Virus record (IMG/VR): IMGVR_UViG_3300045586_000026
Location: 1 to 56,797 of that record
Length of the DNA stretch: 56,797 nt
Direction: 5' to 3' (one strand)
DNA from: a virus
Lineage: Duplodnaviria; Caudoviricetes
The notes beneath the pieces are model-generated. The model saw only the letters and a program-made list of their open reading frames with translations, had not been told where the DNA came from and made no database searches. Positions 1-47,942 of the stretch are shown piece after piece. A program made the translations under genes and the position numbers. Positions within the stretch are counted from its first letter, which is position 1. The number at the start of each line of letters is the position of its first letter.

Positions 1-249
1 TGTAAGCGATATGCAAATGATCGAAACAGTTCGTAAAACAATTCGGATTGTAAACAAACAAGCCCGGCTAGTGTCCAAATGGTCACAGGAACCCGCAAAG
101 TTGTTTAGAGTTTGTTTGAAAGCTCGCGTACCTAGCACTAATCCTGCTTACGCGAAATACAAGAACCAGTACATCAAATCGTTTCATATGATTGATGCAC
201 AAACAATCGACGTATACGTACAACGTCGTTAATGTTAGTAAAATAACAG

Positions 250-278
250 TGTACATTAAATCGTTAGTGTGGTATAAT
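250..278 (+). promoter_or_regulatory. Early/sigma70-type promoter heading the tRNA/ncRNA operon
   Basis: TGTACA-N17-TATAAT with TG extended -10; the same motif recurs roughly 25-30 times in the window. Confidence 0.8.
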
Positions 279-291
279 TAGTCCATACACT

Positions 292-418: not shown

Positions 419-493
419 ACTGCTATCGTCTATCGGTTAGGACACCAGGTTTTCATCCTGGTAAGCGGGGTTCGACTCCCCGTAGCAGTACCA
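419..493 (+). tRNA. tRNA-Glu(TTC)
   Basis: Acceptor ACTGCTA/TAGCAGT, anticodon arm CCAGG-TTTTCAT-CCTGG, GTTCGA T-loop, CCA. Confidence 0.95.
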
Positions 494-588
494 TATTAAA
501 GCACACTACTTGCCCGACTGCAAATGTCGTGGTAAACTACTAAAGAAACAGGTTCGAATCCTGGGGACTGGTAGTGTTCTTCAATATG
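491..588 (+). ncRNA. Family B structured element 1 (contains a T-arm-like hairpin)
   Basis: Terminal stem CATATTAAAGCACACTAC/GTAGTGTTCTTCAATATG enclosing CAGG-TTCGAAT-CCTG. Confidence 0.55.
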
Positions 589-597
589 TTAAATTTA

Positions 598-672
598 GGT
601 GCGTTCATATAATGGTCATTATCGCGGATTGTCTATCCGTAGACGGGAGTTCGATTCTCCCACGCATCGCCA
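598..672 (+). tRNA. tRNA-Asp(GTC)
   Basis: Cloverleaf, anticodon loop TTGTCTA, CCA. Confidence 0.95.
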
Positions 673-679
673 AGTTTTT

Positions 680-754
680 GGGGGATTCATATACTGGGTA
701 TTATGCCTGCCTTGCACGTAGGTCAAAAGAGTTCGATTCTCTTATCCTCCACCA
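680..754 (+). tRNA. tRNA-Ala(TGC)
   Basis: Cloverleaf, loop CTTGCAC, G3:U70 pair, CCA. Confidence 0.95.
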
Positions 755-761
755 GTTTTTC

Positions 762-835
762 GCGGGGTTCGTATAGTGGTAATACCTTAGCCTTCCAAGC
801 TAAAGCGAGGAGTTCGATTCTCCTACCCCGCTCCA
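762..835 (+). tRNA. tRNA-Gly(TCC)
   Basis: Cloverleaf, loop CTTCCAA, U discriminator, CCA. Confidence 0.95.
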
Positions 836-841
836 AGTTAT

Positions 842-920
842 CTGTGTGTAATGTCAGTCTGGTCAGACGGCCTGGTTTGGAACTAGGAGGCCGCAGGTTC
901 GAATCCTGCCACACAGACCA
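842..920 (+). tRNA. tRNA-Pro(TGG)
   Basis: Cloverleaf, loop TTTGGAA, CCA. Confidence 0.93.
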
Positions 921-977
921 AGAAACTCTCCCTTGCATGCGGAGTATAATGAGATAAGTAGTATGCAAACAAATTTA

Positions 978-1054
978 GCCCTTGTGACGGAATTGGTATA
1001 CGTACTGGTCTTAGAAACCAGGTTCTGGGAGTTCAAGTCTCCCCGAGGGCACCA
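978..1054 (+). tRNA. tRNA-Leu(TAG), short variable arm
   Basis: Loop CTTAGAA, acceptor GCCCTTG/CGAGGGC, CCA. Confidence 0.9.
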
Positions 1055-1060
1055 AACAAA

Positions 1061-1152
1061 GGAAAGTAATGCAGCGGGGTTGGTCCTGCGACCAGCCTTG
1101 AAAACTGGGTTCTCAGAAATGGGATGGGGTTCGACTCCTCTGCTTTCCGCCA
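1061..1152 (+). tRNA. tRNA-Ser(TGA)
   Basis: Loop CTTGAAA, long variable arm, G discriminator, CCA. Confidence 0.9.
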
Positions 1153-1157
1153 GATAT

Positions 1158-1233
1158 ATCGACGTAGCTCATCAGGTAGAGCACCGGACTGAAAATTCGG
1201 GTGTGGTTGGTTCGAGTCCAACCGTCGGTACCA
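1158..1233 (+). tRNA. tRNA-Phe(GAA)
   Basis: Loop CTGAAAA, cloverleaf, CCA. Confidence 0.93.
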
Positions 1234-1239
1234 ATCAAT

Positions 1240-1314
1240 AGCCTTATAGCTCAGAGGAAGAGCAATCGCTTGATAAGCGATAGGTCGACATTTCAAAATT
1301 GTCTAAGGCTACCA
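1240..1314 (+). tRNA. tRNA-Ile(GAT)
   Basis: Loop TTGATAA, cloverleaf, CCA. Confidence 0.92.
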
Positions 1315-1319
1315 ATTTT

Positions 1320-1379
1320 AGGATCAGTTCAGCAAAAACTTAAAACTTTCTCTTATTCAGAAACTAAAAGTTGATCCTG
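1320..1379 (+). ncRNA. Family A (Y-RNA-like) copy 1
   Basis: AGGATCA-GTTCAGCAA...TTGATCCTG terminal stem; internal TTTCT-CTTATTC-AGAAA hairpin. Confidence 0.75.
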
Positions 1380-1387
1380 TTTTATTT

Positions 1388-1472
1388 GGAGTAGAAGCAT
1401 CAATGGTGATGCAGTGGACTGTAAATCCGCCGCCTTCGGGCACGCCTGGTTCGATCCCAGGATACTCCACCA
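1388..1472 (+). tRNA. tRNA-Tyr(GTA)
   Basis: Loop CTGTAAA, variable arm, CCA. Confidence 0.92.
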
Positions 1473-1479
1473 ATTTTAT

Positions 1480-1555
1480 TCCCTAGTAGCTCAGAGGTAG
1501 TAGCAAACGACTGTTAATCGTTAGGTCACACGTTCGATCCGTGTCTGGGGAGCCA
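1480..1555 (+). tRNA. tRNA-Asn(GTT)
   Basis: Loop CTGTTAA, cloverleaf, GCCA. Confidence 0.93.
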
Positions 1556-1561
1556 ATTTAA

Positions 1562-1657
1562 CCACTGTAGACTTGGTTGTCCGAGTTTGCGCAGCTCGAG
1601 GAGACGGTTCGATTCCGTTCATGGACTTAGCGGGTTCGATTCCCGCACAGTGGGCCA
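1562..1657 (+). ncRNA. Atypical tRNA-like RNA with two T-arms (GCG anticodon)
   Basis: Acceptor CCACTGT/ACAGTGG plus GCCA; CGAGT-TTGCGCA-GCTCG; two GGTTCGATTCC arms. Confidence 0.7.
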
Positions 1658-1661
1658 GTTT

Positions 1662-1827
1662 TGTAAGTGTAGATGTTGAGAAAGCATGGCGTCGAAAACC
1701 ATGCGAATGAGTCCCACCGCAACGTGGCTAAACTAGTAAGCTCTGTTATCAACTGTTACTGCGTACCTCTAACCCTAACGTACACTGGGCGAAATGGTTC
1801 CGAATGAGTGAGGCGGAACTACTTACA
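1662..1827 (+). ncRNA. Unknown structured RNA
   Basis: Terminal stem TGTAAGT(G)TAG/CTACTTACA with several internal hairpins, between tRNA genes. Confidence 0.6.
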
Positions 1828-1837
1828 GATTCAATAT

Positions 1838-1912
1838 GGGGAAGAAACTTTGACGGTGAAGTCCTGCCTCTTAAGCAGAGAGAACCGAGTTCGAATCTCG
1901 GCATCCCCACCA
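1838..1912 (+). tRNA. tRNA-Lys(CTT)
   Basis: Loop CTCTTAA, T-arm CCGAG-TTCGAAT-CTCGG, CCA. Confidence 0.85.
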
Positions 1913-1914
1913 AG

Positions 1915-2056
1915 AATTAGTCGGATTAATTACCCGAGATAGTAGATAGTAGACGGTGTTGGCACCACCATCGTCTTTGCAGTGATACTGCGTCAGGGAG
2001 CCCGAAAGGGTAACTTGAGAAACACTGGGGTAAGAGTCCCAAGTTTGTGTCAGCAA
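1915..2056 (+). ncRNA. Unknown structured RNA
   Basis: GC-rich hairpins AGACGGTG/CATCGTCT, GCAGT-gat-ACTGC, CCC-GAAA-GGG inside the tRNA operon. Confidence 0.5.
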
Positions 2057-2061
2057 TTTTT

Positions 2062-2118
2062 AGGATACATTCAGCAAAATTAAAAATTTCACTGTAAATG
2101 AAAAACAAACGTATCCTG
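2062..2118 (+). ncRNA. Family A copy 2 (Tyr-like anticodon stem-loop)
   Basis: AGGATAC-ATTCAGCAA...GTATCCTG; TTTCA-CTGTAAA-TGAAA. Confidence 0.75.
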
Positions 2119-2126
2119 TTGAACAT

Positions 2127-2202
2127 GCGCCGTTAGTTATAATGGAGAATATACGAGGCTACGAACTTCGGGATGGTGGTTCGATTCCATCACGGCGCAC
2201 CA
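2127..2202 (+). tRNA. tRNA-Arg(ACG)
   Basis: Loop CTACGAA, cloverleaf, CCA. Confidence 0.93.
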
Positions 2203-2263
2203 AATAGATTGTACATTATAACTTTTGTATGATATAATTACTTTATAACACATAGGATATATT

Positions 2264-2425
2264 ATGCTTAAACCTTCGAAAACATTTAGAATCTGGAAAG
2301 AAACGAAACGTGCTATGGCAACTATCGTCGATCCAGTTCAGCGTAACATTTATAAGAATGCAATGATTCAGGCTCAGTTAACCTCTGAGTTGCCTCCAGT
2401 TCGCGATAAGAGCGACAAGAAGTAA
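2264..2425 (+). CDS. Small basic hypothetical protein (53 aa, not in ORF track)
   Basis: Own TGTACA/TATAAT promoter (~2210-2238), AGGA RBS, ORF MLKPSKTFRIWKETKR...DKSDKK. Confidence 0.7.
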   Translation: MLKPSKTFRIWKETKRAMATIVDPVQRNIYKNAMIQAQLTSELPPVRDKSDKK

Positions 2426-2432
2426 AGATTTT

Positions 2433-2488
2433 AGGATGCGTCCAGCAAGCAAAAAAATTCAACTTGTAATTGAAAAATAAGCATCCTG
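2433..2488 (+). ncRNA. Family A copy 3 (Thr-like anticodon stem-loop)
   Basis: AGGATGC-GTCCAGCAA...GCATCCTG; TTCAA-CTTGTAA-TTGAA. Confidence 0.75.
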
Positions 2489-2496
2489 TTGTATAT

Positions 2497-2575
2497 CGCG
2501 GAGTAGGGGAGTCTAGTCGTCCCCGCCAGTCTCATAAGCTGGAGATCGCAGGTGCGAATCCTGCCTCCGCAACCA
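2497..2575 (+). tRNA. tRNA-Met(CAT), initiator-like
   Basis: Loop CTCATAA, C1:A72 mismatch (CGCGGAG/CTCCGCA), CCA. Confidence 0.88.
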
Positions 2576-2579
2576 GTTT

Positions 2580-2645
2580 AGGATAGTTTCTGCACAAAAT
2601 ACAGAACACCAACTTTTACTTGACATGTTCGTCAACACTATCCTG
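2580..2645 (+). ncRNA. Family A copy 4
   Basis: AGGATAG-TTTCTGCAC...CTATCCTG; possible CAA-CTTTTAC-TTG loop. Confidence 0.7.
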
Positions 2646-2653
2646 TTGTATTT

Positions 2654-2729
2654 GCCCTTATAGCTCATTTGGTAGAGCAACCGCCTTGTAAGCGGTAGGT
2701 GGTCAGTTCGAAACCGACTGAGGGCACCA
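2654..2729 (+). tRNA. tRNA-Thr(TGT)
   Basis: Loop CTTGTAA, cloverleaf, CCA. Confidence 0.95.
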
Positions 2730-2797
2730 TATTAAAGCACATTCGATATGCTCACAGCATATAGAGACATATGAAACGTGAGTGTGCTCCAATATGG
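2727..2797 (+). ncRNA. Family B structured element 2
   Basis: CCATATTAAAGCACATTC...GAGTGTGCTCCAATATGG terminal stem. Confidence 0.55.
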
Positions 2798-2845
2798 TCA
2801 GTACTATCGACGGATAGTATCCATAATCGGGAGTCATGACCCGAT

Positions 2846-2923
2846 GAACTCGTAGTCTTCTAATGGTTAGGATGCTCTTACTGGGTGATACAGGTTCGAA
2901 TCCTGTCTACAATGAGTTCGCAA
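2846..2923 (+). ncRNA. Degenerate tRNA-like RNA with stunted anticodon arm
   Basis: GAACTC-GTAG/CTAC-aat-GAGTTC stem, TAATGGTTA D-loop, ACAGG-TTCGAAT-CCTGT T-arm, ends GCAA not CCA. Confidence 0.55.
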
Positions 2924-2937
2924 GTTTAAAAAGGTTT

Positions 2938-3036
2938 AGGATCAGTTCCGCAAACCCAACTCTTTAATTGTAAGCAATTTAGTATGCCTCTTGAGTTATA
3001 CTAGATTTTTTATACTTGAAATGTAAACTGATCCTG
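2938..3036 (+). ncRNA. Family A copy 5 (Ser-like anticodon stem-loop plus extra hairpins)
   Basis: AGGATCA-GTTCCGCAA...CTGATCCTG; TTTATA-CTTGAAA-TGTAAA. Confidence 0.72.
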
Positions 3037-3039
3037 CCT

Positions 3040-3114
3040 GGTTCCATAGCACAGCGGTAGTGCACCTCCTTCATACGGAGATGGTCGTTAGTTCGATTCT
3101 AACTGGAACCACCA
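3040..3114 (+). tRNA. tRNA-CAT (elongator Met or Ile2)
   Basis: Loop TTCATAC, cloverleaf, CCA. Confidence 0.9.
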
Positions 3115-3138
3115 ATAGTTTTAATATATAGTTTTATT

Positions 3139-3215
3139 CGGAATGTAGCGCAGCCTGGTAGCGCACCTCGTTTGGGACGAGGGGGTCCAAGGTTCGAATC
3201 CTTGTATTCCGACCA
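3139..3215 (+). tRNA. tRNA-Pro(TGG), second copy
   Basis: Loop TTTGGGA, host-like CGGAATGTAGCGCAGCCTGGTAGCGC. Confidence 0.95.
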
Positions 3216-3224
3216 TTTTTAATC

Positions 3225-3298
3225 GCTCTTTTAGTATAAAGGCATTACAATACATTGGTAATGTATAGACGCTGGATCGTTACCAGCAAGGAGCACCA
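3225..3298 (+). tRNA. tRNA-Thr(GGT)
   Basis: ATACA-TTGGTAA-TGTAT; non-canonical T-loop ATCGTTA; CCA. Confidence 0.85.
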
Positions 3299-3308
3299 AG
3301 GAGTAACT

Positions 3309-3515
3309 ATGAGTGATGGCGGTAAAGGGTCTAAGCCAAGACCATTTAGTGTAAGTGATATTGAATACGCAGACCGATGGGAAGCGATATTCCACAAAGA
3401 CAAGAAACCTGAATTGAGAGAAGTGGTTGAACATAGTAGTCACAAGATGTTGACTGCGGAAAATCACCTTCAAGCTCTAGCCGATGAGAATCAACGACTA
3501 GGTTTGTACGATTAA
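3309..3515 (+). CDS. Hypothetical protein
   Basis: AGGAG RBS before ATG 3309 (MSDGGKGSKPRP...); the upstream part of the track ORF overlaps a tRNA. Confidence 0.75.
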   Translation: MSDGGKGSKPRPFSVSDIEYADRWEAIFHKDKKPELREVVEHSSHKMLTAENHLQALADENQRLGLYD

Positions 3516-3554
3516 CATGGCTCAGTCCTCTACGTAAGTACGATTGAGTTCTCT

Positions 3555-3640
3555 GCGGGTGTGATGAAATTGGTAGTACATAGGAGACTTAAAATCTCCC
3601 GCCGCAAGGCGTGCCGGTTCGAGTCCGGCCACCCGCACCA
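3555..3640 (+). tRNA. tRNA-Leu(TAA)
   Basis: Loop CTTAAAA, long variable arm, CCA. Confidence 0.95.
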
Positions 3641-3645
3641 AATTT

Positions 3646-3762
3646 AGGATCAGTTCAGCAAACTTATATTTCAACCAGCGTTTTGTGGGTTCGAGTCCCA
3701 CCTTCTAAGTAATTGGAAGTAGTCAAATTGGTAAAGACAGCCGGCAATAAAAGTTGATCCTG
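3646..3762 (+). ncRNA. Family A copy 6: YrlA-like RNA with circularly permuted tRNA domain
   Basis: Family A stem enclosing T-arm (GTGGG-TTCGAGT-CCCAC), loop-closed acceptor stem (CTTCTA/TGGAAG), then D-arm (GTC-AAATTGGTAAA-GAC). Confidence 0.82.
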
Positions 3763-3770
3763 TTAGATAT

Positions 3771-3845
3771 ATCTCGATAGTGTAATTGGCAACACTCTGA
3801 TCTCCAAAATCAGCATTCTAGGTTCGAGTCCTAGTCGGGGTGCCA
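3771..3845 (+). tRNA. tRNA-Trp(CCA)
   Basis: Loop CTCCAAA, cloverleaf, GCCA. Confidence 0.9.
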
Positions 3846-3905
3846 AATAAGTCCTGGACACGCGGACTCTAAAACGAAGTGGATGTAAGTGGAATCCTTA
3901 CACCT

Positions 3906-3979
3906 GCGTGCTTAGTTTAATGGTAAAATGTTACGTTGCCAACGTTACGTCAGGAGTTCGATTCTCCTAGCCCGCACCA
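3906..3979 (+). tRNA. tRNA-Gly(GCC)
   Basis: Loop TTGCCAA, T-arm, CCA; some stem mismatches. Confidence 0.85.
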
Positions 3980-8531: not shown

Positions 8532-8658
8532 TTTTGTTCTTTTGATAGATTTATTACACAAACGTATATATAGAAGACCACTGTAAAATAACAGTGTACA
8601 TTAATTCATACATGTGGTATAATTGATCTATCAAAACAACAAACTCATTGGAGTTTTG

Positions 8659-8862
8659 ATGGCTTACATAAAAACAAAAGAAGACGTTCTCAAAGTCTGC
8701 TTAACGATCCCACTTCTAGTGCGTGTTCTTGAGCTGGTCAGAGAAGACGTGAAGAGCGATGTGAATCTGCATAAAGTTCTCGAAGTGCTGCTACAACTTA
8801 GCGTTGATAGATGCCTAACGATGGATGATTACATGAAGATTGCAGAAGCAAATCCAAAATAA
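8659..8862 (+). CDS. Hypothetical protein
   Basis: Early promoter, GGAG RBS, ATG 8659. Confidence 0.7.
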   Translation: MAYIKTKEDVLKVCLTIPLLVRVLELVREDVKSDVNLHKVLEVLLQLSVDRCLTMDDYMKIAEANPK

Positions 8863-8918
8863 CAGTGTACATTAAATGGAAACTGTGGTATAATTAACCT
8901 AACAACGGAGGAATGAAT

Positions 8919-9050
8919 ATGAAACGAAAACCTATCGCTAGAGAACGTAACTGCTTCGTTCGTCTGGCCTTATTCCGAAAAGCAGGGTCACACCGCAAGA
9001 GCAACAAAGCTCTACGTAAAGTGACAAAGCAAACACAGGAATCGTGGTGA
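8919..9050 (+). CDS. Small Arg/Lys-rich protein (43 aa) overlapping the 5' end of tRNA-Lys
   Basis: GGAGG RBS; MKRKPIARERNCFVRLALFRKAGSHRKSNKALR... Confidence 0.6.
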   Translation: MKRKPIARERNCFVRLALFRKAGSHRKSNKALRKVTKQTQESW

Positions 9051-9113
9051 AATGGTTATCACAGCAGACTTTTAATCTGCCAGTTCCGGGTTCGAGTCCC
9101 GGTGGTTCCACCA
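9038..9113 (+). tRNA. tRNA-Lys(TTT)
   Basis: GCAGA-CTTTTAA-TCTGC, CCA. Confidence 0.95.
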
Positions 9114-9149
9114 TATTAAAGTGCATTCATTGAGTGTATTTCAATATGG
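9111..9149 (+). ncRNA. Family B element 3 (minimal hairpin)
   Basis: CCATATTAAAGTGCATTC-att-GAGTGTATTTCAATATGG. Confidence 0.55.
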
Positions 9150-9155
9150 TTTTAT

Positions 9156-9231
9156 GGTGATGTTAGTGTAATGGTCAGCACCAGAGATTGTGAATCTCTT
9201 AGTACGGGTTCGATACCCGTACGTCACCCCA
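9156..9231 (+). tRNA. tRNA-His(GTG)
   Basis: G-1:C73, loop TTGTGAA, CCA. Confidence 0.93.
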
Positions 9232-9239
9232 ATAAACAT

Positions 9240-9314
9240 GCCTCGGTAGCTCAGAGGAAGAGCAACGCTTTTACACGGCGAAGGTCGGGATTTCGAAATT
9301 CCCCTGAGGCACCA
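9240..9314 (+). tRNA. tRNA-Val(TAC)
   Basis: Loop TTTACAC, cloverleaf, CCA. Confidence 0.92.
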
Positions 9315-9532: not shown

Positions 9533-9578
9533 TTGTTAAGGTGTACATTAAATCGTATACCTGATACAATAGAGTTAT

Positions 9579-9841
9579 GGGATGAGTACAGCAGTTAAAA
9601 CTATTACGCTCAAAACGGACGCCGAACTGAGGAAACATCGTAAGGTGTAACAACAACGGCTAGGTTGGAAAAGACTAGAGACCCTATTAGGATCTCGACG
9701 TTGGTGCCGAATCACTACCTAGTTCACATTACATGTGATATGCCAATGAATTGGATACGCCGATAGACCGGATAGTCTATTAATTTCAGGCTGGGTATAA
9801 GAGCCTTGGTTAGAAAACCAAACTAACGAACCACCATCCCG
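9579..9841 (+). ncRNA. Family A copy 7: long multi-hairpin RNA
   Basis: GGGATG-AGTACAGCAG...CATCCCG enclosing about 8 short hairpins; starts just after a promoter at 9542-9570. Confidence 0.7.
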
Positions 9842-9849
9842 GTATTTTT

Positions 9850-9913
9850 AGATTGAATTCTGCAACATAAAAAAAATGGCTGTCTGCTAGGACTTTAAAC
9901 TAGTATCAATCTG
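9850..9913 (+). ncRNA. Family A copy 8
   Basis: AGATTGA-ATTCTGCAA...TCAATCTG; directly upstream of the DUF2828 gene. Confidence 0.7.
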
Positions 9914-9938: not shown

Positions 9939-11369
9939 ATGTCATCATTTGCTCAAGCCGTTCAAGGCCAATCCGCTCGTACCACTAACGGTATGAAGGC
10001 ACTCAAGTCTACCTCAGACGCATGTGTAGACCTATTCTTTAAGGTGGGTGCATCACGTGGTAAGAACATCACCAAGGATTTTGTCGCAGCTCTGGCTGAA
10101 GACCAAGACACCGCACTGCGTATCGCTCAATGGGCTCGTGACGCTCGTGGTGGTGCTGGTGAGCGTGAACTGTTCCGTAACATCCTAACCTACCTTGAAG
10201 GCACCAAGCCTGAACTGGCTCTTAAGCTGATGGCTAAGGTTCCAGAGATCGGACGTTGGGACGACCTGCTAGTGTTCAAGACTGCACCAATCAAGTCCAA
10301 GGCTTATGATATGTTGGGCGATGCCCTTCGTGCTAAGAATGGACTGGCTGCAAAGTGGACTCCTCGTAAGGGCGTTATCGCTCAAGAGATTCGTGAGCAC
10401 TTTGGTATGTCGCCTAAGTTCTATCGTAAGTCACTGGTTGAAATGACTAACGTTGTTGAGACCAACATGTGTGCTAAGGACTGGGACAACATCAACTTCT
10501 CCCATGTTCCATCGGTAGCTGCTGCTCGTTACAAGAAGGCATTCTCTCGTAACACTGAAACCTATGCTGCATACGTTGCTGCACTGGTTAAGGGTGAGGA
10601 TCCAAAGGTGAAGGTTAACGCCGGCGCCGTGTATCCATACGACGTGCTGAAGGGTTGTATCAACTCTTACGGTCGTGCTGCTTACAACAGCGATGAGAAG
10701 GCTGTGATCGTTAAGCAATGGGATGCACTGGAGAACTTCATCGGCGATGCTAATGTATTGGCGATGGTGGATGTATCCGGTTCCATGAGTTGTAAGGCTG
10801 GTGGAACTGCTTCAAAGAGCGAGACCACCTGTATGGAGGTTGCTATCTCCTTGGGATTGTATGTAGCTGATAAGAACAAGGGTAAGTTCAAGGATACGTT
10901 CCTGACCTTCTCGGGTTCGCCAGAACTGCTACACTTGAAGGGCGATGTGCTGCAGAAGATCGATCAAATGTCCAAGTCCAAGTGGGCTATGAACACCGAC
11001 CTAGTGAAGGCGTTCGAGAAGATCCTTCGTGTCGCTAAGGAAGGTAACGTAGCTCAAGAGGAAATGCCTGAGATGCTGTTGATCATGTCAGACATGCAGT
11101 TTGACCAGTGTGCTCGTTTCGACGATAGCGCAATGAAGATGATCGAACGTAAGTTTGAAGATGCAGGGTACGAACTTCCAAAGATCGTGTTCTGGAACAT
11201 CAGCGCTGCCGACAACGTGCCAGTGAAGTACGACACTCGTGGAGTAGCATTGGTATCAGGGTTCAGCCCTGCTATCATGAAAGCGGTACTGTCTGCGGAC
11301 ACTACTCAATTCACGCCTGAGTCAATCATGCGTAAAGCTATCGATATCCCACGATACGATCTGGCCTAA
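9939..11369 (+). CDS. DUF2828-family protein (TROVE/Ro60-like helical region plus vWA/MIDAS domain)
   Basis: TTNG...VDLFF, ARDARGGAGER, GRWDDLL, AAKWTPR; MIDAS DVSGSM, NTD, SDMQFD, IVFWN, SGFS. Confidence 0.88.
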   Translation: MSSFAQAVQGQSARTTNGMKALKSTSDACVDLFFKVGASRGKNITKDFVAALAEDQDTALRIAQWARDARGGAGERELFRNILTYLEGTKPELALKLMAKVPEIGRWDDLLVFKTAPIKSKAYDMLGDALRAKNGLAAKWTPRKGVIAQEIREHFGMSPKFYRKSLVEMTNVVETNMCAKDWDNINFSHVPSVAAARYKKAFSRNTETYAAYVAALVKGEDPKVKVNAGAVYPYDVLKGCINSYGRAAYNSDEKAVIVKQWDALENFIGDANVLAMVDVSGSMSCKAGGTASKSETTCMEVAISLGLYVADKNKGKFKDTFLTFSGSPELLHLKGDVLQKIDQMSKSKWAMNTDLVKAFEKILRVAKEGNVAQEEMPEMLLIMSDMQFDQCARFDDSAMKMIERKFEDAGYELPKIVFWNISAADNVPVKYDTRGVALVSGFSPAIMKAVLSADTTQFTPESIMRKAIDIPRYDLA

Positions 11370-14623: not shown

Positions 14624-17600
14624 ATGGCAATATCAAAAAAATTATCGCAATTAGCCAGTTTAACAACAGTTAACGGCACTGCTGTTACCATTGCCGGAAC
14701 TCTAAATGTTCCACTCGCCGATAGTCCAACGTTTACTGGAACTGTATCAGGCGTGACTAAGGCGATGGTGGGTCTTCCAAATGTAGAAGACAAGAATTCA
14801 TCGACTATACGTAGTGAGTTAAGTCATAGCAACGTATCAACTGCGTTGGGATTCACTCCGTATAACGCTACTAATCCCAATGGTTATACCACCAACGTTG
14901 GTACGCTCACTGCAGTCACAGCAACTGGACCTATTGCATCGACAGGTGGTACGACTCCAGTCATCAGTATGCCAGCTGCGACTACTGCAGTTGATGGTCA
15001 CCTTACAGCTGCCGACTGGACGATCTTCAACAATAAACAAGCTGCTGGTACATATGCTACCGGAACAGGTAGCGCCGCTGGTACGAATACCGGCGATAAC
15101 GCGGTCAACTCGCTATATTCTGGTTTAGTAACTAACGCTACTCACACCGGTGATGTGACTGGTAGCACTGCACTAACACTTGCGACTGTCAATACTAACG
15201 TTGGTCAATTTGGTTCTACCACGGCAATCCCAGTCGTTACAGTCAACGGTAAGGGATTGATCACTGCGATATCCACCACATCGATAACTGTACCTACAGC
15301 GGTGAGTCAATTGAGTAATGACTCTAGTTTTGCTACCACGACATACGTCGGTACCGCAATAGCAAATCTGGTCGCTTCATCACCAGCAGCATTGGATACT
15401 CTAAATGAACTGGCTGCAGCGCTTGGCAATGATGCTAGCTTCGCTGCCACGACTGCAACGAACCTAGGCCTTAAGGCTCTAAAGACAACCACGATTAGTG
15501 CTGGAGCTGGATTGACCGGCGGCGGTGATCTGGGCGCTGACAGAACGCTTGCATTAGCTGCATCGGGTGTGACTGCTGGAACTTATAACAACGTCACTGT
15601 CGATACGTATGGACGTGCTACATCTGGTTCTAACGTAGCGTACATTACTGGGTACACTGAAGTAGATACGTTGGCGACTGTGACAGCACGAGGTTCGCAA
15701 GCTAGTGCAAGTATTACAATTGGTTCTAATGGAACTTACGCAGCTGGTTCTATTTACTCTGATTCCAATTGGGGTATGTTATTCAGAGCTAGACAAGCTT
15801 CTCCAGCTAGTAAAGAGTTCATGTGGTCTACAAGTACAGACACAAACTTAATGACTCTTTCGACGGCTGGTGCACTTAATGCCATTGGCGCGATCACTGG
15901 CTCTAATTTGTCAGGCACAAACACTGGTGATAATCCAGGTGTTACATCAGTCGCTGGCGTTACACCAATCGTATCATCTGGTGGTACTACACCTTCAATA
16001 TCACATGCTACGTCTGGCGCGACGGCTGGTACATATAATAACGTCACCGTTGATACGTTTGGTCATGTCACCAGTGGTTCTAATACAGCGTACATTACTG
16101 GGTATAGCGAAACGGATACATTAGCGACTGTTACAGCTCGTGGAGCCACTACATCGACTGCGTCTACATTCAGTGGTGGCATCACTGGTGCTATTAATGG
16201 TATGCCTAACGACGGTAATGGACTTAGTGGTATGGGCGTATCCACGACATGGGATGCTAGACCTCAAGGCGTTTATGATCGATATTCTTTAAACTGGCAC
16301 ACTGGCATATCATTGAGTGGGTATCCTGGGTATGGTGGTGTTCGTTTATACGCTTCTGGATACCCTTCTATAACTACTTCAACATTGCGTTTAGAAGCGT
16401 CCGATGCTGTTTACACTTATGGTGTATTGTATAACAATGGTAATACCGTACTGCACGCCGCTAACTACAATTCATACTCACCAACGCTAACAGGTGGCGG
16501 AGCGTCAGGTACTTGGGGTATCAATATTACTGGAAGCGCTGCCTCAGCTAGCACCTCTACAAGTGCTAATTGGTCTACATATTCTCAAGTTCAAGATACT
16601 CGCGCTGCACCGGTGTTGCCTAATCAGTATGCCAGTCATCGCACAACATATGAGTTTACAGACCAAATTATTGGCGGTTGGCACTCTGCTATTACAACGG
16701 TGGGATGGGATAGCGGAAGTTACGCAGCTTGGCAGATCATTGGCGGTGCTACAAGTTCTACACATGAAAATTGGTATTTGCGCAGTGGCATAGCCTCATC
16801 CTGGAATCCTCTTCGTACGATCTTACATTCTGGCAACTACAATTCATATTCGCCAACGCTAACCGGTGGAGGAGCGTCAGGCACTTGGGGTATTAATATT
16901 ACTGGAAGTGCCGGTTCTATACCTTGGGCGAATGTAACTGGTGGTGTAAGAACAAATTATGACTTAGGGTTTCAAGCACCAAGTAGCAGCTATGCCGGTT
17001 TTTCTTTTTCTAAAAGTGCTAGCGCTTCAGGCGCATCAGACGCTGGTTATCTTTTAATTCGTGGTACATCAGATAATTTTATTCCATATACCGCAGAAGG
17101 TATCACACTGGTTTCTGATGCGAATAGTTTGAATTTATTTGCTCGTGGAAGTAGCTTAGTCTCCGGCGGTAATGCTTGGGTGCGTATGGGTACGGGTACT
17201 GAAGAAACTTTCCGTTTGATGGGTAATTACTCGTACTCATTAAATTCGTCAAGAGCACCTATCTTCTACGACAGTGACAACACTGCATATTACGTAGATG
17301 CTGCCGGCGAGTCTAGACTAAATTCACTTAGAATATTTGGTGCAGCTAATTGGGATGCTATCACTCTTTCAACTGATGGCGCTAATGGTTATATTCAAGG
17401 GTTAGGCGATGAAACTGGCCTACACATACGATCAGAATACGGCAACGTATATCTTGCTGATAATCGTGGCGATGTTCGTATGCCAATGTTTTACGATGTT
17501 AACGACACTGCATACTATGTAGATCCTAATAGCGGTTCAAATCTTTCTAGTCTGACTGTTGTCAATACTATAACTGGTAGTATCACTGGCACCGCAGCTA

Positions 17601-20600
17601 GTGAAACGCTGGCGACAGTTACTGGACGCGGTGCTAGTACATCGGCTGCAATTTCGTTAAGTGGAACGTTAAGTTTTGCTCAACCAGTTGGACTATCTTT
17701 TGCTAATGGACAGTATATTAAAGATAACGGCGGCGGCGGTTTAGCAATTTATAGCGGTGCTGCTATAAATCTTACTGGCGCCACATCAGTAACTGGTGCA
17801 CTAACAGTTAGCACTACAGTTCAAACAACAGGAAAAGTAGTTATAGGTGGTACTTTTGCGACTACTGGATACAATGGACCTACTGGTGCAAGACTAATGT
17901 TTAGTGGAGCTGACACTGATGCTGAAAGTCATTATTTCATCGGAACAAACCTAGAAAACTATGGTGGTAACTATAACAAATTAGACATACGCTGGCACAC
18001 TGGTATTCGAATGGGTGCTCGACCAAATTATGGTGGTATTCGTTTCTATGATAGCGAGGATTTAGGAACACAGATTTTTGCTATTGGTAAAGATGGGTCG
18101 TACGCTCAGGCAAACCATAGTATGCGTGCACCGATATTCTATGATCATGATGACACTACATACTATGGAGACTTTGCTAGCACTTCTAATCTTCTTGGGC
18201 TGACTGTCACTAATACTATAACTGGTAGCGTTACTGGCACTGCTACTGAACTCTTATCTAAATATCCGTATAATACAAATGTAATTTCGGATGCAAATAC
18301 TGCTTTTACTCTATCGCCGGGAGTGGGTTCTACTACAGTAGCAATGCACGCCTCGCACGGATTGTTTGGAGGATATGCTACAACGCTCACAATGTCTGGA
18401 TATGAGCGATACGGCGCATATCAAATTTCTGGCAATTATAATGCAACAACATCTGCGCTGGCCATGCGCAATTATAATCAAACTGCTGGAGGATGGACTT
18501 CCTGGGTACCCCTTCTTTCAAGCGCAAACTACAATTCATATTCGCCAACATTAACTGGTGGTGGAGCTTCTGGCACTTGGGGTATTAATATCACAGGCAG
18601 TGCTGCAACTGCAACTGACAGCACGAAAGTAGCAAAGACCGGCGATACAATGACTGGCGCGTTAAATATTAGTGCTTCACCAAGTGGAAGAACATTATCT
18701 TTAGGCGGGGATCAGCTAGATCGAGTGATTGACGATTCAGCTCGTTCGAGTCTGGTGATAAACGCAGCGTACTATCCACACTTATACATTAATGCGACAT
18801 CTAACGCATCTAATACTAATCATGGACCAGTTTTCTCAATGTCTGGAGTATTATCGGCAGGTGGGTATAGAAGATGGGGTATGGGTATTGCTAATACTGA
18901 CCCGGATTGTTTCAGTTGGGGTTATTACGATAATAACGTAAATCCTCATTATGGTGTCGGTGGCGTATTTGGTTATACTGGTACTAATTCGAAGATGTGG
19001 CTAAACACTGGTGGTTCTTTGATGACTACTGGTGATATGCGTGCACCAATCTTCTATGATAGCAATGACACTACATACTATGGAGACTTTGCTAGCACTT
19101 CTAATCTATATAATTTGCAAATAACTGGCGCTAGCAACAAGTACTTGTATATTAATCCAGGCAACGGTTACGAAGCAATGGTTAGATACAATGGTGGTGC
19201 TGGTAGTGGATGGTATGCAGGAAAACGAGTTGCCGATCAGTTAGTTAGTCCTTCAGACTTTCACTTTTATTCAGAAGGTGCAGGTAGAACTGTTGGTGGT
19301 ATAACTGCAGCTGGGGCGATAGTCGCGTATGGCTCTGTAGATTCTCCTAAATTTTATAGTACTAATCGTTGGGGCTCTGCTAACTTATCTGACTTATCTA
19401 GTGCTCCATTTGAAGGTGGTGATTTTAGTGCTGGCACAACAGCACAATACGTGCCACTGACACATCAGTCTGCTGTATATAATTCTGGTTATCGCACACA
19501 CGTCAGTACTGGTACATATAAAGATGCTAATGGATGGGGCGCCGGTTGGTACATGGCGATTGGTGGCAGCGATAGTTATCCAACTGAAGCGTTCCAGTTA
19601 AGACACGGTGGCGCAATTAGACATACGAATGGTTATGTTACTATTGAAGGAGATACACGATCACCATTATTCTATGATAGTAACGACACTGCGTATTATT
19701 TAGACGCAGCTGGTACATCTGTATTCAATCGTATAAGCACCGTTCGCACGAATAACTTTTTGTACATGGATAACAACTATGGTCATTCCATTGTTGGAGC
19801 ATACTCTGCGAGTCGCTATCAGGGTGTGTTTGCGATGGGCGATGCATATAAACTTCCAGCCGATGGTACTACAACTGGTAACTTATATGGCTTAGCATGG
19901 AGTCATCCTAATGCAGGTGGTGTTGCCGCTAACTTGAACACTCACGGCTTGCTAGCAATGGAAAACGGTACTTGGCTAGCGTCGTTATGTGGCAGTACTC
20001 GTGCTCGTGACGACATGCGTGCACCGATCTTCTACGATAACAATGACACTGCTTATTATGTAGATCCTAATGCTACTACTAGAATTAGAAAGACTAATTT
20101 AATTGCATCTGGCTCAGGATGGGACGATGGTTTAAACTTATACTCATCAGACGCGACCAATAGATGGAACTTTTTAGTAGATGATGGCGCAGCAGATTCT
20201 TTACGAATTGCGTACAATAACTCTGAAGCATTAACTATTAATACTTCTAGAAACGTAATAGCAGCTGTTGATATTCGTGCACCGATCTTCTACGACAGTG
20301 AAGACACTGGTTATTATTTGAGTCCTAACAGCGAAAGTAATTTAAACAAACTTACATATGCTGCTCAACAACGTTTCAGTGTGAGCTACAGAGCACCTGG
20401 TCGCAGTTCTAATACAAGTGATCAATTCTATTGGACTAACACAGTGGGCTGGGCTCAAGAGCAGGGCAACTGGAGTAATTATTGGAAATATGGATTTGGT
20501 GGATTTGACTGTTGGGGAACTAACACGGACCATCCACAAGGCACCGCATATATTCACGCACAGGGTATTCAATCTGGTATGCACGCCGCAAATGCCGACG

Positions 20601-39801: not shown

Positions 39802-39872
39802 TGTAGTACATCTAACGGTGTACATTAATTCGTCATTATGTTATAATTGGTCCATAGACAAAAAGGATCGTG

Positions 39873-40904
39873 ATGAGAAAGTTAGCAACAATTCGTAAGA
39901 TCGATGCACTCACTCCAATCACTGGAGCTGATGCGATCGAGTGCGCCCACGTCGGTGGATGGAAGGTCGTAGTCAAGAAAGGCGAGTATGTCGCCGGTGA
40001 CTTAGCGGTCTACATCGAGATCGACTCTTGGGTTCCTACAACTCTGGCTCCCTTCCTATCTAAGGGAAACTACCCCCGCGTCTACAATGAAGTAGAAGGT
40101 GAACGCCTTCGAACGGTGAAGCTGCGCGGTCAAGTTTCTCAAGGACTGCTGTTGCCTCTAGACGTACTACGCGGTAAGGTCAGCGATAATGATTTTGAAT
40201 ATCTCAGTGACTGTGAGAACATGGATGTCACTGAGTTGCTTAGCATCCAAAAGTGGGAACCCGCAACTGAATTCATGTCTGCAGACGCCAAAGGCGCTTT
40301 CCCTTCGCAAATTCCTAAGACTGATCAGGAGCGTATCCAGAACCTGTCATACGAACTCGAGCAATGGAAGACAGAAGGCATCACTTGGGAGGTGACTGAG
40401 AAGCTCGAGGGCTCTTCAATGACTGCCTACCTGATTGACGGCGAGTTTGGCGTGTGTTCTCGCAACCTCAACCTAAAGCCTAATCCAGATGCTACATTCT
40501 GGAAGACCGCTATTGATGCAAAACTTGAAGAAGCTATGCGCAAATTTGGCGACAACATCGCGCTTCAAGGTGAGTTGGTCGGCGAAGGTATCCAAGGGAA
40601 CATCTACAAGCTTAAGGGTACTCACTTCTATGTGTATGACATCTATGACATCGCTGAAGGTAAGTACTTTGAACCCATTGATCGAAGAGTGTTCTGTAAG
40701 ATGTATGCTATCAATCACGTTCCTGTGATGCACGCGAATACCGAACTGCTAACGTCAGTTGACTCGTTGTTAACTCTTGCCGAAGGTAAGTCTGTAATGG
40801 GAATGATTGGATGCGAGCGTGAAGGTCTGGTGTTCAAATGTAATGATAAGGAAGTTTCCTTCAAAGCGATCTCTAATCGCTATCTGTTAAAATCTAAGGA
40901 TTAA
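39873..40904 (+). CDS. RNA ligase, DRB0094/Rnl5 family (N-terminal OB-like domain)
   Basis: RKLATIRKI..GADAIE, LRGQVSQGL, PKTDQERIQN, motif I EKLEGSS, QGELVG, EGLVFK, FKAISN. Confidence 0.92.
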   Translation: MRKLATIRKIDALTPITGADAIECAHVGGWKVVVKKGEYVAGDLAVYIEIDSWVPTTLAPFLSKGNYPRVYNEVEGERLRTVKLRGQVSQGLLLPLDVLRGKVSDNDFEYLSDCENMDVTELLSIQKWEPATEFMSADAKGAFPSQIPKTDQERIQNLSYELEQWKTEGITWEVTEKLEGSSMTAYLIDGEFGVCSRNLNLKPNPDATFWKTAIDAKLEEAMRKFGDNIALQGELVGEGIQGNIYKLKGTHFYVYDIYDIAEGKYFEPIDRRVFCKMYAINHVPVMHANTELLTSVDSLLTLAEGKSVMGMIGCEREGLVFKCNDKEVSFKAISNRYLLKSKD

Positions 40905-40905
40905 A

Positions 40906-42391: not shown

Positions 42392-42415
42392 TTCGTAATT
42401 GTGATATAATTAACT

Positions 42416-47534: not shown

Positions 47535-47570
47535 TTGTACTTTAATTCGTAATTGTGGTATAATAAACTA

Positions 47571-47925: not shown

Positions 47926-47942
47926 ATTAACTTGGAGAATTT

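What the first reader, a model, noticed from the sequence alone, without database searches (positions are those of the whole stretch)
1347..3027. Family A RNAs display free anticodon stem-loops: possible decoys for anticodon nucleases
Seen: the short copies carry a stem closing a 7-nt loop starting CU. Copy 2 CTGTAAA (2092-2098) is identical to the phage tRNA-Tyr loop, copy 3 CTTGTAA (2463-2469) to tRNA-Thr(TGT), copy 5 CTTGAAA (3015-3021) to tRNA-Ser(TGA). Copy 1 CTTATTC (UAU) and copy 4 CTTTTAC (UUU, Lys; weaker stem) fit less well; copy 8 has CTTTAAA in a looser loop. Known: host defences such as PrrC, RloC, VapC-type toxins and PARIS AriB cut tRNAs in or near anticodon loops. Inference: a protein-stabilised panel of anticodon mimics that titrates such nucleases, or alternatively engages synthetases or modification enzymes.
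Basis: partly seen in the sequence, partly recalled or inferred. Interest (0 to 1): 0.86.

Follow-up and report, generated by a model that had tools for sequence, protein, structure and literature searches.

The report
Phage RNAs displaying anticodon-arm mimics
A freshwater T4-like phage and many other phages encode small RNAs that hold out a look-alike of a tRNA anticodon arm on a conserved handle, next to a Ro60-like protein gene; I found no description of this design, and its purpose (perhaps baiting tRNA-cutting defences) is untested.

Summary
Each has a 5-bp stem closing a 7-nt loop that starts CU, and copies 2 and 3 are perfect C32-U33-NNN-A37-A38 loops. It fails for copy 5, where the loop is buried in a strong long hairpin. 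It is doubtful for copy 4 and does not apply to copy 8.

It is far beyond chance. In 61 related sources, 44 of 77 unique short elements carry such a hairpin, against about 2.6 of 61 in shuffles of an earlier set. A second set reached by DNA pattern repeats this: 29 of 60 against 2.4.

The elements share a handle: UAG, a covarying 8-9 bp terminal stem, a (U/A)CAGCAA box, then CUGUU. They sit between tRNA genes and co-occur with a DUF2828/DUF7788 protein whose predicted fold matches Ro60. Longer members carry T, acceptor and D arms like YrlA, sometimes with an anticodon arm at tRNA spacing, so the short hairpins look tRNA-derived. Cluster L mycobacteriophages have the same design.

Best reading: Y-RNA-like RNAs that present tRNA parts to anticodon-loop-binding proteins. 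The decoy-for-nucleases idea is plausible but untested. The stems are AU-rich and predicted to be weak.

Verdict: a new variant of a known kind, worth experiments.

The parts
1319..1379 (+). Family A copy 1. Handle plus an apical 5-bp/7-nt hairpin (stem 1347-1351 / 1359-1363, loop CTTATTC 1352-1358). The mimic is imperfect: U at the position-37 place and C at 38.
   Evidence: (the minimum-energy fold contains the hairpin)
2061..2118 (+). Family A copy 2. Handle plus an anticodon-arm mimic (stem 2087-2091 / 2099-2103, loop CTGTAAA 2092-2098).
   Evidence: The same TTTCA...TGAAA stem occurs in relatives and in cluster L mycobacteriophages.
2432..2488 (+). Family A copy 3. Handle plus an anticodon-arm mimic (stem 2458-2462 / 2470-2474, loop CTTGTAA 2463-2469).
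   Evidence: L007, whose protein is 97% identical, differs in this element only at the middle loop base.
2579..2645 (+). Family A copy 4. Handle plus hairpin 2619-2623 / 2630-2634.
2937..3036 (+). Family A copy 5. Handle plus a long, stable hairpin. It is not an anticodon-arm mimic.
   Evidence: -29.8 kcal/mol, z -5.0. L007's copy differs by changes that keep the pairs.
3645..3762 (+). Family A copy 6. Handle plus a T arm, a closed acceptor-like hairpin and a D arm, in the permuted order seen in YrlA.
   Evidence: Weak Rfam YrlA hit at 3678-3741: 23.2 bits against a cut-off of 69.
9578..9842 (+). Diverged long family member (copy 7). 5' TGGGATGAGTACAGCA ... 3' CCATCCCGGT.
   Evidence: Aligns with the roughly 210-240 nt members of relatives.
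9849..9913 (+). Family A copy 8. It ends 25 nt before the DUF2828 start codon. It has a 4-bp stem and a 9-nt loop and is not anticodon-like.
9939..11369 (+). DUF2828/DUF7788 protein with a predicted Ro60-like ring fold. It is the presumed protein partner of the handle.
   Evidence: Co-occurrence with the RNA elements.
419..3979 (+). The tRNA gene cluster that holds copies 1-6. The elements are wedged between tRNA genes at fixed distances.

Best explanation
Shown by the calls:
- Family A elements share a conserved handle: UAG, an 8-9 bp terminal stem whose sequence covaries, a single-stranded (U/A)CAGCAA box, and a 3' CUGUU.
- They co-occur with a DUF2828/DUF7788 protein whose predicted fold matches Ro60.
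- The short copies carry a hairpin with exact anticodon-arm geometry.
- Longer members of the same family carry whole or permuted tRNA bodies.

Inferred:
- The elements are small stable RNAs cut out of the phage's tRNA-cluster transcript by the enzymes that trim the flanking tRNAs.
- The handle is what the Ro60-fold protein holds, as Ro60 holds Y RNAs.
- The short copies are reduced forms that keep only a 5-bp, 7-nt-loop anticodon-arm mimic (C32 U33 NNN A37 A38).
- The resulting particle presents this loop as bait to a protein that recognises anticodon loops.

My committed reading is that this belongs to the conflict over tRNA integrity. The bait would occupy tRNA-cleaving defence enzymes, or bring the Ro60-like ring and the phage's RNA-repair enzymes to them.
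For: Family and handle:
- 226 elements lie on the gene strand against 1 on the opposite strand, in 54 of 61 sources; 167 are unique.
- The terminal helix is 99% paired, and 4 of its 8 pairs change on both sides.

Anticodon-arm geometry:
- 44 of 77 unique short elements have a YU-NNN-RN 7-nt loop, and 42 of the 44 have a stem of exactly 5 bp.
- In the first set, 37 of 61 had it, against a shuffle mean of 2.6 and a maximum of 8.
- Selecting only on the loop motif CT...AA, 39 of 51 windows are flanked by exactly 5 pairs, against 18 of 1298 other 7-mers.
- Replication on elements reached by a DNA pattern: 29 of 60, against 2.4 in shuffles.
- The hairpin helix shows double changes at 3 of 5 pairs.
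- Loop positions 32-33 and 37-38 are nearly fixed (0.18 and 0.0 bits). Positions 34-36 vary like the linkers (1.13 against about 1.0 bits). The phages' real tRNAs are 98% YU-NNN-RN and 51% CU-NNN-AA.

tRNA descent:
- 15 of 60 long unique elements with a T-loop motif have such a hairpin 18-20 nt upstream of it, which is tRNA spacing.

Protein partner:
- The predicted structure (pLDDT 74) matches Ro60 chains over its full length, E about 1e-7.
- A homologue is present in 28 of 52 records with a complete element, against 1 of 28 with only a chance pattern match (Fisher p 5e-6).
- One element always abuts the protein gene.

Processing context:
- The element starts 4-5 nt after the upstream tRNA in 55 of 65 cases. 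The next tRNA starts 8-9 nt after CUG in 47 of 62 cases.

Breadth:
- In 5 of 5 cluster L mycobacteriophages looked at, three such elements follow the 'Ro-like RNA binding protein' gene. Phage CELFI holds the same 17-mer hairpin as the freshwater phages.

Repair context:
- The window holds an RNA ligase, an exoribonuclease and a metallophosphoesterase.
- LeBron has a Ro-like protein, a polynucleotide kinase and an RNA ligase (passages of PMC13148394).
Against: - No binding, cleavage or expression end was shown. The RNA-library contigs only cover the region.
- The mimic stems are AU-rich: 2.1 G/C per 10 stem bases, against 6.0 in real tRNAs.
- The thermodynamic model gives the stems a median pair probability of 0.08 at 37 C and 0.125 at 15 C.
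- The protein has no Pfam TROVE hit and no sequence-level match to solved Ro60. The likeness is fold-level only, with TM about 0.49.
- The handle lacks the Y-RNA motif GNCGAAN0-1G (passage in PMC4201824).
- The G34-type hairpin keeps its stem sequence (TTTCA/TGAAA) from mycobacteriophages to T4-like phages. That fits a sequence-specific site at least as well as a generic anticodon mimic.
- 33 of 77 unique short elements have no such loop.
- The rows of alignment A2 were chosen for having the hairpin, so its paired percentage is inflated.
Confidence: 0.45

Rival explanations
1. Tether for housekeeping tRNA enzymes. The anticodon-arm and elbow mimics recruit host modification enzymes, synthetases or processing nucleases to the Ro60-like ring. 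The purpose would be quality control or maturation of the phage's own large tRNA set, not defence evasion.
For: - YrlA is modified by tRNA enzymes and can be cut by RNase P (abstract and passages of PMC4201824).
- The elements are embedded in the tRNA cluster at fixed distances from the tRNAs.
- A37 and A38 are invariant in the 42 aligned rows.
Against: - No enzyme is identified.
- The weak AU stems would be poor substrates for enzymes that read the stem.
- The evidence does not separate this from the bait reading.
Confidence: 0.2
2. The hairpin is a second, sequence-specific contact for the DUF2828 protein or a phage partner. Its likeness to anticodon loops is inherited from a tRNA ancestor and has no present role with tRNA-binding factors.
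For: - The same TTTCA-CTGNNAA-TGAAA hairpin occurs in GC-rich cluster L mycobacteriophages and in the AT-rich freshwater phages.
- CTTGTAA is kept in 19 unique short elements with 4 different hairpin stems and several different terminal stems (sequences).
- Long members show descent from tRNA bodies.
Against: - The U34-type hairpins change their stems freely (4 stems with CTTGTAA and 6 with CTTTTAA).
- The three middle loop bases vary as much as the linkers. That fits a geometry constraint better than a fixed sequence site.
Confidence: 0.2
3. Processing punctuation. The elements are spacers that guide cutting of the polycistronic tRNA transcript, and the apical hairpin is incidental.
For: Spacing to the flanking tRNAs is fixed: 4-5 nt upstream and 8-9 nt downstream.
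Against: - 35 of 100 short instances have no upstream tRNA within 40 nt and 38 have no downstream one.
- One copy abuts the protein gene, not a tRNA.
- In Synechococcus phage BUCT-ZZ01 the elements lie between ORFs.
- The conserved box and the covarying apical hairpin would be unnecessary.
Confidence: 0.07
4. Minimal 'armless' tRNAs that decode.
For: Terminal stem plus anticodon arm, 54-65 nt long, with anticodon-like loops.
Against: - There is no CCA, while the phage's real tRNAs encode it.
- The 3' end is a conserved CUGUU.
- The terminal stem is 8-9 bp and closes with U-G.
- Neither ARAGORN nor the Rfam tRNA model calls them.
- The same anticodons are already covered by normal tRNAs in 44 of 54 instances.
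Confidence: 0.03

Closest known systems
YrlA / YrlB and Yrn1: bacterial and phage Y RNAs bound by Ro60 (Rsr). Sources: Chen et al. 2014, PMC4201824 (abstract and passages read); bioRxiv 10.1101/312249 (abstract and passages read).
   Same: - Small RNAs encoded beside, and on the same strand as, a Ro60-fold protein gene.
- The ends pair into a stem, with a conserved single-stranded motif near the 5' end.
- There are several different RNAs per genome.
- One class carries T, closed-acceptor and D arms.
- D. radiodurans Yrn1 was modelled with a 5-bp 'anticodon arm' carrying a 6-nt loop.
   Different: - The handle motif is (U/A)CAGCAA, not GNCGAAN0-1G.
- The protein is DUF2828/DUF7788 and has no Pfam TROVE hit.
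- No element reaches the Rfam YrlA cut-off.
- YrlA 'lacks the anticodon loop', whereas the short copies here are nothing but handle plus anticodon arm.
- The elements sit inside a tRNA gene array.
Thermus phage phiLo Ro60 with Yrl1 and Yrl2 (PMC12135203; abstract and passages read; PDB 9L5Y and 9KOP)
   Same: - A phage Ro60-type ring with phage-encoded partner RNAs placed upstream of its gene.
- It is the best structural match of the window's protein.
   Different: - The phiLo RNAs were picked by a CGAA motif and a stem-bulge-stem shape.
- No tRNA-part mimicry is reported in the passages I read.
- Sequence identity to the window's protein is about 15-17% in the structural alignment.
Dictyostelium Class I RNAs (Rfam RF01414; Kjellin et al. 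2021, PMC7919456, passages read)
   Same: - About 42-65 nt long.
- A short terminal stem that covaries.
- A conserved roughly 11-nt motif directly after the 5' strand. The Rfam consensus reads CUUACAGCAA, and some phage elements read UUACAGCAA.
- Conserved ends: AAG...CUGU there, UAG...CUGUU here.
- A variable A/U-rich middle.
   Different: - The hits are sub-threshold: 33.1, 20.7 and 19.7 bits against a cut-off of 41.5.
- They are eukaryotic genes with their own promoter element.
- The only partner named in the passages I read is an RRM protein.
- No link to DUF2828 is known to me.
Phage tRNAs as counter-measures to tRNA-cleaving defences (PMC10264068, PMC11464382; search listing and abstracts only)
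   Same: Phage-encoded RNAs with anticodon loops, in phages with large tRNA sets.
   Different: Those are complete, chargeable tRNAs that replace cleaved ones. The elements here cannot be charged and could only compete or recruit.

Membership tests
Y RNA / YrlA-type Ro60 partner RNA (Rfam RF02553) | Encoded close to, and on the same strand as, a Ro60-fold protein gene | tested here: met
   - Copy 8 ends 25 nt before the gene. Copies 1-6 lie 6-8.6 kb upstream on the same strand.
- The predicted fold matches Ro60.
- Co-occurrence is 28 of 52 against 1 of 28.
- Caveat: there is no Pfam TROVE hit and no sequence-level PDB match.
Y RNA / YrlA-type Ro60 partner RNA (Rfam RF02553) | Terminal stem carrying the Ro60-binding motif GNCGAAN0-1G (bacteria) or GGUCCGA (vertebrates) | tested here: not met
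   The stem is present and covaries, but the conserved motif is (U/A)CAGCAA. The motif definition comes from PMC4201824.
Y RNA / YrlA-type Ro60 partner RNA (Rfam RF02553) | tRNA-like domain with a T arm, closed acceptor stem and D arm | tested here: inconclusive
   - It is visible in copy 6 and in many long relatives.
- It is absent from the short copies 1-4.
- The Rfam YrlA score is 23.2 against a cut-off of 69, and there is no YrlA hit in L189, L188 or L069.
Y RNA / YrlA-type Ro60 partner RNA (Rfam RF02553) | Bound and stabilised by the Ro60-type protein | not testable with these tools
   This needs immunoprecipitation or gel-shift assays.
tRNA (Rfam RF00005) | Anticodon arm with a 5-bp stem, 7-nt loop, U33 and purine 37 | tested here: met
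   Met for copies 2 and 3; copy 1 has U at 37.
tRNA (Rfam RF00005) | Acceptor stem ending in CCA, plus D and T arms | tested here: not met
   The short copies are not called by ARAGORN or by the Rfam tRNA model. They end in CUGUU.
Dictyostelium Class I RNA (Rfam RF01414) | Reaches the curated score of 41.5 bits | tested here: not met
   Scores are 33.1 bits (copy 2), 20.7 (copy 3) and 19.7 (E. coli phage EC6 element).
Dictyostelium Class I RNA (Rfam RF01414) | Short covarying terminal stem, conserved motif right after its 5' strand, conserved termini, about 60 nt | tested here: met
   The alignment covers the full model, 1-56. The features are as described in PMC7919456.
Anticodon-nuclease decoy (no curated family) | Is bound or cut by a tRNA anticodon nuclease and relieves its effect | not testable with these tools
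   No computation available here bears on it.

The most novel reading that the evidence does not exclude
The DUF2828 Ro60-like protein and its CAGCAA-handle RNAs form a modular particle that displays tRNA parts. It would be a widespread phage counter-defence in which anticodon-arm and elbow mimics act as baits or sensors for tRNA-cleaving immunity, possibly resealed by the phage RNA ligase. Dictyostelium Class I RNAs, which have the same architecture, would be its eukaryotic relatives and partners of eukaryotic DUF2828 proteins.
Probability: 0.15. Interest if true: 0.9.

Novelty: new variant of a known kind. Interest (0 to 1): 0.74.

Why it matters
Ro60 and its Y RNAs are conserved from bacteria to humans, yet what the tRNA-like part of bacterial Y RNAs is for remains open.

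This is a second handle type, large and not in Rfam. It is tied to the DUF2828 branch of Ro60-like proteins, which have homologues in 711 cultured-phage records. Its variable module runs from whole tRNA bodies down to a bare anticodon arm. That says the thing being presented is tRNA surface, piece by piece.

It also gives tractable systems:
- cluster L mycobacteriophages on M. smegmatis mc2 155;
- Felixounavirus on E. coli K-12;
- a Synechococcus phage.

If the anticodon-arm modules do engage tRNA-cleaving defences, this would be a new class of RNA-based counter-defence.

The likeness to Dictyostelium Class I RNAs offers a first hypothesis for an orphan eukaryotic RNA class.

Tried and rejected
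- Rfam at curated thresholds names none of the elements. One multi-locus call was swamped by tRNA rows, and its 36 lowest-scoring rows were not shown.
- Sequence searches of the protein against solved structures found no Ro60. Only the fold search did.
- The protein atlas returned only DUF2828 clusters of viruses.
- DNA searches found no cultured close relative of the region or of copy 3.
- Metatranscriptome contigs from 4 runs cover copies 1-4 and 6. They are contigs, so they give no ends or strand, and DNA carry-over cannot be excluded.
- Triplet against the phage's own anticodons: 44 of 54 overlap, which is uninformative because these phages encode most tRNAs.
- Synteny: the flanking tRNAs differ between phages, so there is no link between a mimic's triplet and its neighbour.
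- I considered pairing between the loop and the box by eye, on the sequences. I dropped the idea because CTTGTAA occurs with several different boxes.
- Chance is rejected by the shuffles.
- Look-ups of earlier scan notes for this genome and for this sequence returned nothing.
- Three papers were not held: Avesson 2011 on Class I RNA-binding proteins, and two Y-RNA reviews. Supplements of Chen 2014, which list the phage YrlA loci, are closed. I therefore cannot exclude that some long elements of cluster L phages were already listed there.
- Literature searches found no description of these RNAs: 'DUF2828' (5 papers, none on an RNA); Ro60 + phage + Y RNA + TROVE; anticodon nuclease + decoy; Ro-like + mycobacteriophage.
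Full report
**Setting**

The window is a 56.8-kb fragment of an uncultured virus, about 32% complete. It carries gp32 and a T4 baseplate protein, so it is a T4-like phage. DNA runs that hold it are labelled freshwater and lake water.

Bases 419-3979 and 9038-9314 hold 21 tRNA genes by ARAGORN, plus further tRNA-like hits by Rfam. A two-piece tmRNA lies at about 47.5 kb.

It finds none on the other strand and none for the reversed control pattern. The paired-end pattern TTAGGAT...ATCCTG finds 4 copies where 0.04 are expected. Two more diverged copies lie just before the DUF2828 gene: 9578-9842 and 9849-9913.

**The observation**

Read, copies 1, 2 and 3 each have a 5-bp A/U-rich stem closing a 7-nt loop at the stated places.

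- Copies 2 and 3 read CTGTAAA and CTTGTAA. That is C32-U33, three bases, then A37-A38. They equal the loops of the phage's tRNA-Tyr-like gene and of tRNA-Thr(TGT).
- Copy 1 reads CTTATTC and lacks the purine at 37.
- Copy 4's loop has only a 3-bp stem. That stem shares bases with a better hairpin, which covaries in a relative.
- Copy 5's loop is swallowed by a long hairpin of -29.8 kcal/mol, which 0 of 200 shuffles reach.
- Copy 8 has a 9-nt loop.

So the panel in this window is two clean mimics and one imperfect one, not five.

**More than chance**

I fetched 60 loci that encode relatives of the DUF2828 protein, at 51-97% identity. I scanned them and the window for this architecture: TAG, 8 or more terminal pairs, the box, then CTG.

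- There are 226 elements on the gene strand and 1 on the opposite strand. They occur in 54 of 61 sources, and 167 are unique. I did not check why 7 sources have none.
- Of 77 unique short elements (72 nt or less), 44 have a 7-nt loop of the form YU-NNN-RN closed by at least 4 pairs. In 42 of the 44 the stem is exactly 5 pairs.
- In the first version of the set, 37 of 61 had it. Dinucleotide shuffles of the inner parts gave a mean of 2.6 and a maximum of 8 in 300 rounds. For the stricter form CU-NNN-AA the count was 34, against 0.55.
- A test that does not select on pairing: of 51 windows reading CT...AA inside short elements, 39 are flanked by exactly five pairs, against 18 of 1298 other 7-mers.
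- A replication set came from scanning the viral collection for the handle pattern. It gave 60 further unique short elements. Of these, 29 have the loop (24 as CU-NNN-AA), against 2.4 and 0.44 in shuffles.

I aligned 42 of the 44 hairpin-bearing short elements. The two copy-4-type rows were left out.

- The terminal helix is 99% paired, with double changes at 4 of 8 pairs.
- The apical helix is 89% paired, with double changes at 3 of 5 pairs.
- All slid controls fall to 50% paired or less.
- These rows were chosen for having the hairpin, so only the compensatory changes carry weight, not the paired percentage.

Column entropy shows the signature of an anticodon loop. Positions 32-33 have 0.18 bits and 37-38 have 0.0 bits. 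Positions 34-36 have 1.13 bits, like the linkers at about 1.0.

The real tRNAs of the same loci number 1079 genes, with 443 unique anticodon arms. They are 98% YU-NNN-RN and 51% CU-NNN-AA.

**What the elements are**

All members share the handle.

- The sequence reads (U)UAG, a terminal stem whose sequence covaries, a single-stranded box, a variable middle, the returning strand, and CUGUU.
- The box reads GUUCAGCAA, or UUACAGCAA in many relatives.
- The elements start 4-5 nt after the CCA of the upstream tRNA in 55 of 65 cases.
- The next tRNA starts 8-9 nt after CUG in 47 of 62 cases.
- Trimming of the flanking tRNAs would therefore release the elements with short tails. That step is inferred.

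The middle is modular.

- Long members carry a T arm, a closed acceptor-like hairpin and a D arm in permuted order, as YrlA does. Copy 6 is of this kind, with a weak Rfam YrlA hit.
- Others carry a D arm, an anticodon arm, a variable loop and a T arm in normal order.
- In 15 of 60 long unique elements with a T-loop motif, an anticodon-like hairpin sits 18-20 nt upstream of it, at tRNA spacing.
- The short elements therefore look like reduced forms that kept only the anticodon arm.

**The protein**

- The ORF at 9939-11369 matches Pfam DUF7788 and DUF2828, and PHROG 850 'RNA-binding protein'.
- Its AlphaFold model (16 sequences in the alignment, pLDDT 74) matches Ro60 chains over the whole length at E about 1e-7 and TM about 0.49. 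The matches are Thermus phage phiLo, Xenopus and Deinococcus.
- Sequence searches do not see Ro60.
- One family member always lies directly upstream of the gene in the loci where the upstream flank is held.
- Among 80 loci found by the DNA pattern alone, a homologue of the protein is in the same record for 28 of the 52 that have a complete element. It is there for 1 of the 28 that have only the pattern (p 5e-6).
- Among records at least 90% complete, 5 of the 6 with a complete element have the homologue.
- At least five of these contigs also occur in the first set.

**Wider spread**

tblastn finds the protein in 711 cultured-phage records. I looked at a few of them.

- Synechococcus phage BUCT-ZZ01 has three unannotated elements, one abutting the gene.
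- Sinorhizobium phage phiM12 has a long one with the box UCCAGCAA.
- E. coli phage EC6 (Felixounavirus) has four in its tRNA cluster, with the box UUACAGCAA. Its short ones are not anticodon-like.
- All five cluster L mycobacteriophages examined have three elements right after the 'Ro-like RNA binding protein' gene. Their handle reads UGGAC...ACAGCAA...GUCCAGU.
- Three of those five have a short element with a TTTCA-[loop]-TGAAA hairpin whose loop is anticodon-like (CTGCTAA, CTGTTAA, ATGGTAA). CELFI's 17-mer is identical to that of several freshwater loci.
- In phage Zakai the long element is annotated as tRNA-Thr.

**Caveats**

- The mimic stems average 2.1 G/C per 10 bases, against 6.0 in real tRNAs.
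- Their predicted pair probability is low: median 0.08 at 37 C and 0.125 at 15 C. If they form, it is probably with help from protein or ions.
- RNA-library contigs cover copies 1-4 and 6 but prove neither transcription nor ends.
- The strict conservation of the TTTCA/TGAAA stem across very distant phages suggests that, for the G34 type, sequence as well as shape is read.

**How it most likely works**

Shown: the family, its handle, the covarying anticodon-arm geometry, its link to tRNA bodies, and its link to a protein with a predicted Ro60 fold.

Inferred, by analogy with Ro60 and Y RNAs: the protein holds the handle and the module is displayed (Chen 2014, passages read; phiLo paper, passages read).

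The displayed surface is the one read by enzymes that act on anticodon loops.

- The window also encodes an RNA ligase, a 3'-5' exoribonuclease and a metallophosphoesterase within 3.5 kb of one another.
- Cluster L phage LeBron combines the Ro-like protein with a polynucleotide kinase and an RNA ligase. Its authors relate that pair to T4 tRNA repair (PMC13148394, passages read).

I therefore place the system in the tRNA damage and repair conflict, as bait for tRNA-cleaving enzymes or as a tether for repair, at 0.45. Taken alone I would give it about 0.2.

The rivals are a tether for housekeeping tRNA enzymes (0.2), a purely internal protein contact inherited from a tRNA ancestor (0.2), processing punctuation (0.07) and armless tRNAs (0.03).

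**Comparison with the known**

- It works like a Y RNA but fails two membership tests for YrlA: the handle motif and the Rfam score.
- The solved YrlA domain 'lacks the anticodon loop' (bioRxiv 10.1101/312249, passage read). The short elements are the complementary piece.
- The nearest Rfam model to the short elements is, unexpectedly, Dictyostelium Class I RNA. It scores 33.1 bits over the full model against a cut-off of 41.5.
- It shares the stem, the adjacent CAGCAA-type motif, the conserved ends and the length.
- Kjellin et al. state that no Class I RNA was found outside Dictyostelia (PMC7919456, passage read). The match is sub-threshold, so I report it as a resemblance only.
- My four literature searches found no description of DUF2828-linked RNAs or of anticodon-arm-only mimics.

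**Verdict**

This is a new variant of the Y-RNA kind. Interest 0.74.

Noticed in passing
window 2063-2118; L068 11755-11815: The short elements resemble Dictyostelium Class I RNAs (Rfam RF01414). They share a covarying terminal stem, a CAGCAA-type motif just after the 5' strand, conserved ends, and a length of about 60 nt. Scores are 33.1 and 19.7 bits against a cut-off of 41.5. Class I RNAs are reported as unique to dictyostelids.
   Followed up: partly
window 39870-43315: Several RNA-end-processing genes lie together: RNA ligase (39870-40904), a Rv2179c-like 3'-5' exoribonuclease (41795-42391) and a metallophosphoesterase (42416-43315). PhoH lies at 45641-46417. This is a possible RNA-repair set.
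   Followed up: partly
window 47517-47962: The phage encodes a tmRNA, of beta-proteobacterial or permuted two-piece type by Rfam. ARAGORN gives the tag peptide as ANDTLYALAA.
   Followed up: no
window 243-285, 2211-2250, 8588-8626, 8860-8898, 9536-9572: A repeated promoter-like motif (GTGTACATTAA, a spacer, then TGGTATAAT or a near variant) stands before the tRNA cluster and before several small ORFs.
   Followed up: no
window 1061-1148, 1388-1469, 1556-1660, 1838-1909, 2849-2914: Several tRNA-like stretches are not called by ARAGORN. Rfam gives a tRNA-Sec-like 33.9 bits, then tRNA 33.6, 39.5 and 26.7 bits. The stretch 1556-1660 shows two T-arm-like GGTTCGATTCC motifs and a CCA end.
   Followed up: no
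L068 (Escherichia phage EC6) 11745-12530: A Felixounavirus of E. coli has four handle-bearing elements (AGAAGACC...UUACAGCAA...GGUCUGG) in its tRNA cluster, right after the DUF2828 'RNA-binding protein' gene. They are unannotated in the record, and one has T, acceptor and D arms.
   Followed up: partly
L190 (Mycobacterium phage Zakai) 214-284: The record annotates as tRNA-Thr what is the front part of a long handle-bearing, permuted tRNA-like element (213-334).
   Followed up: partly
window 14624-21145: A 2173-aa ORF of unknown role lies downstream of the DUF2828 locus. I did not examine it.
   Followed up: no
L141 record (handle G072) 157840-159282: In one complete 173.6-kb relative, the DUF2828 homologue matches in two adjacent pieces (residues 12-398 and 395-475). 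This may be a frameshift or a split gene.
   Followed up: no
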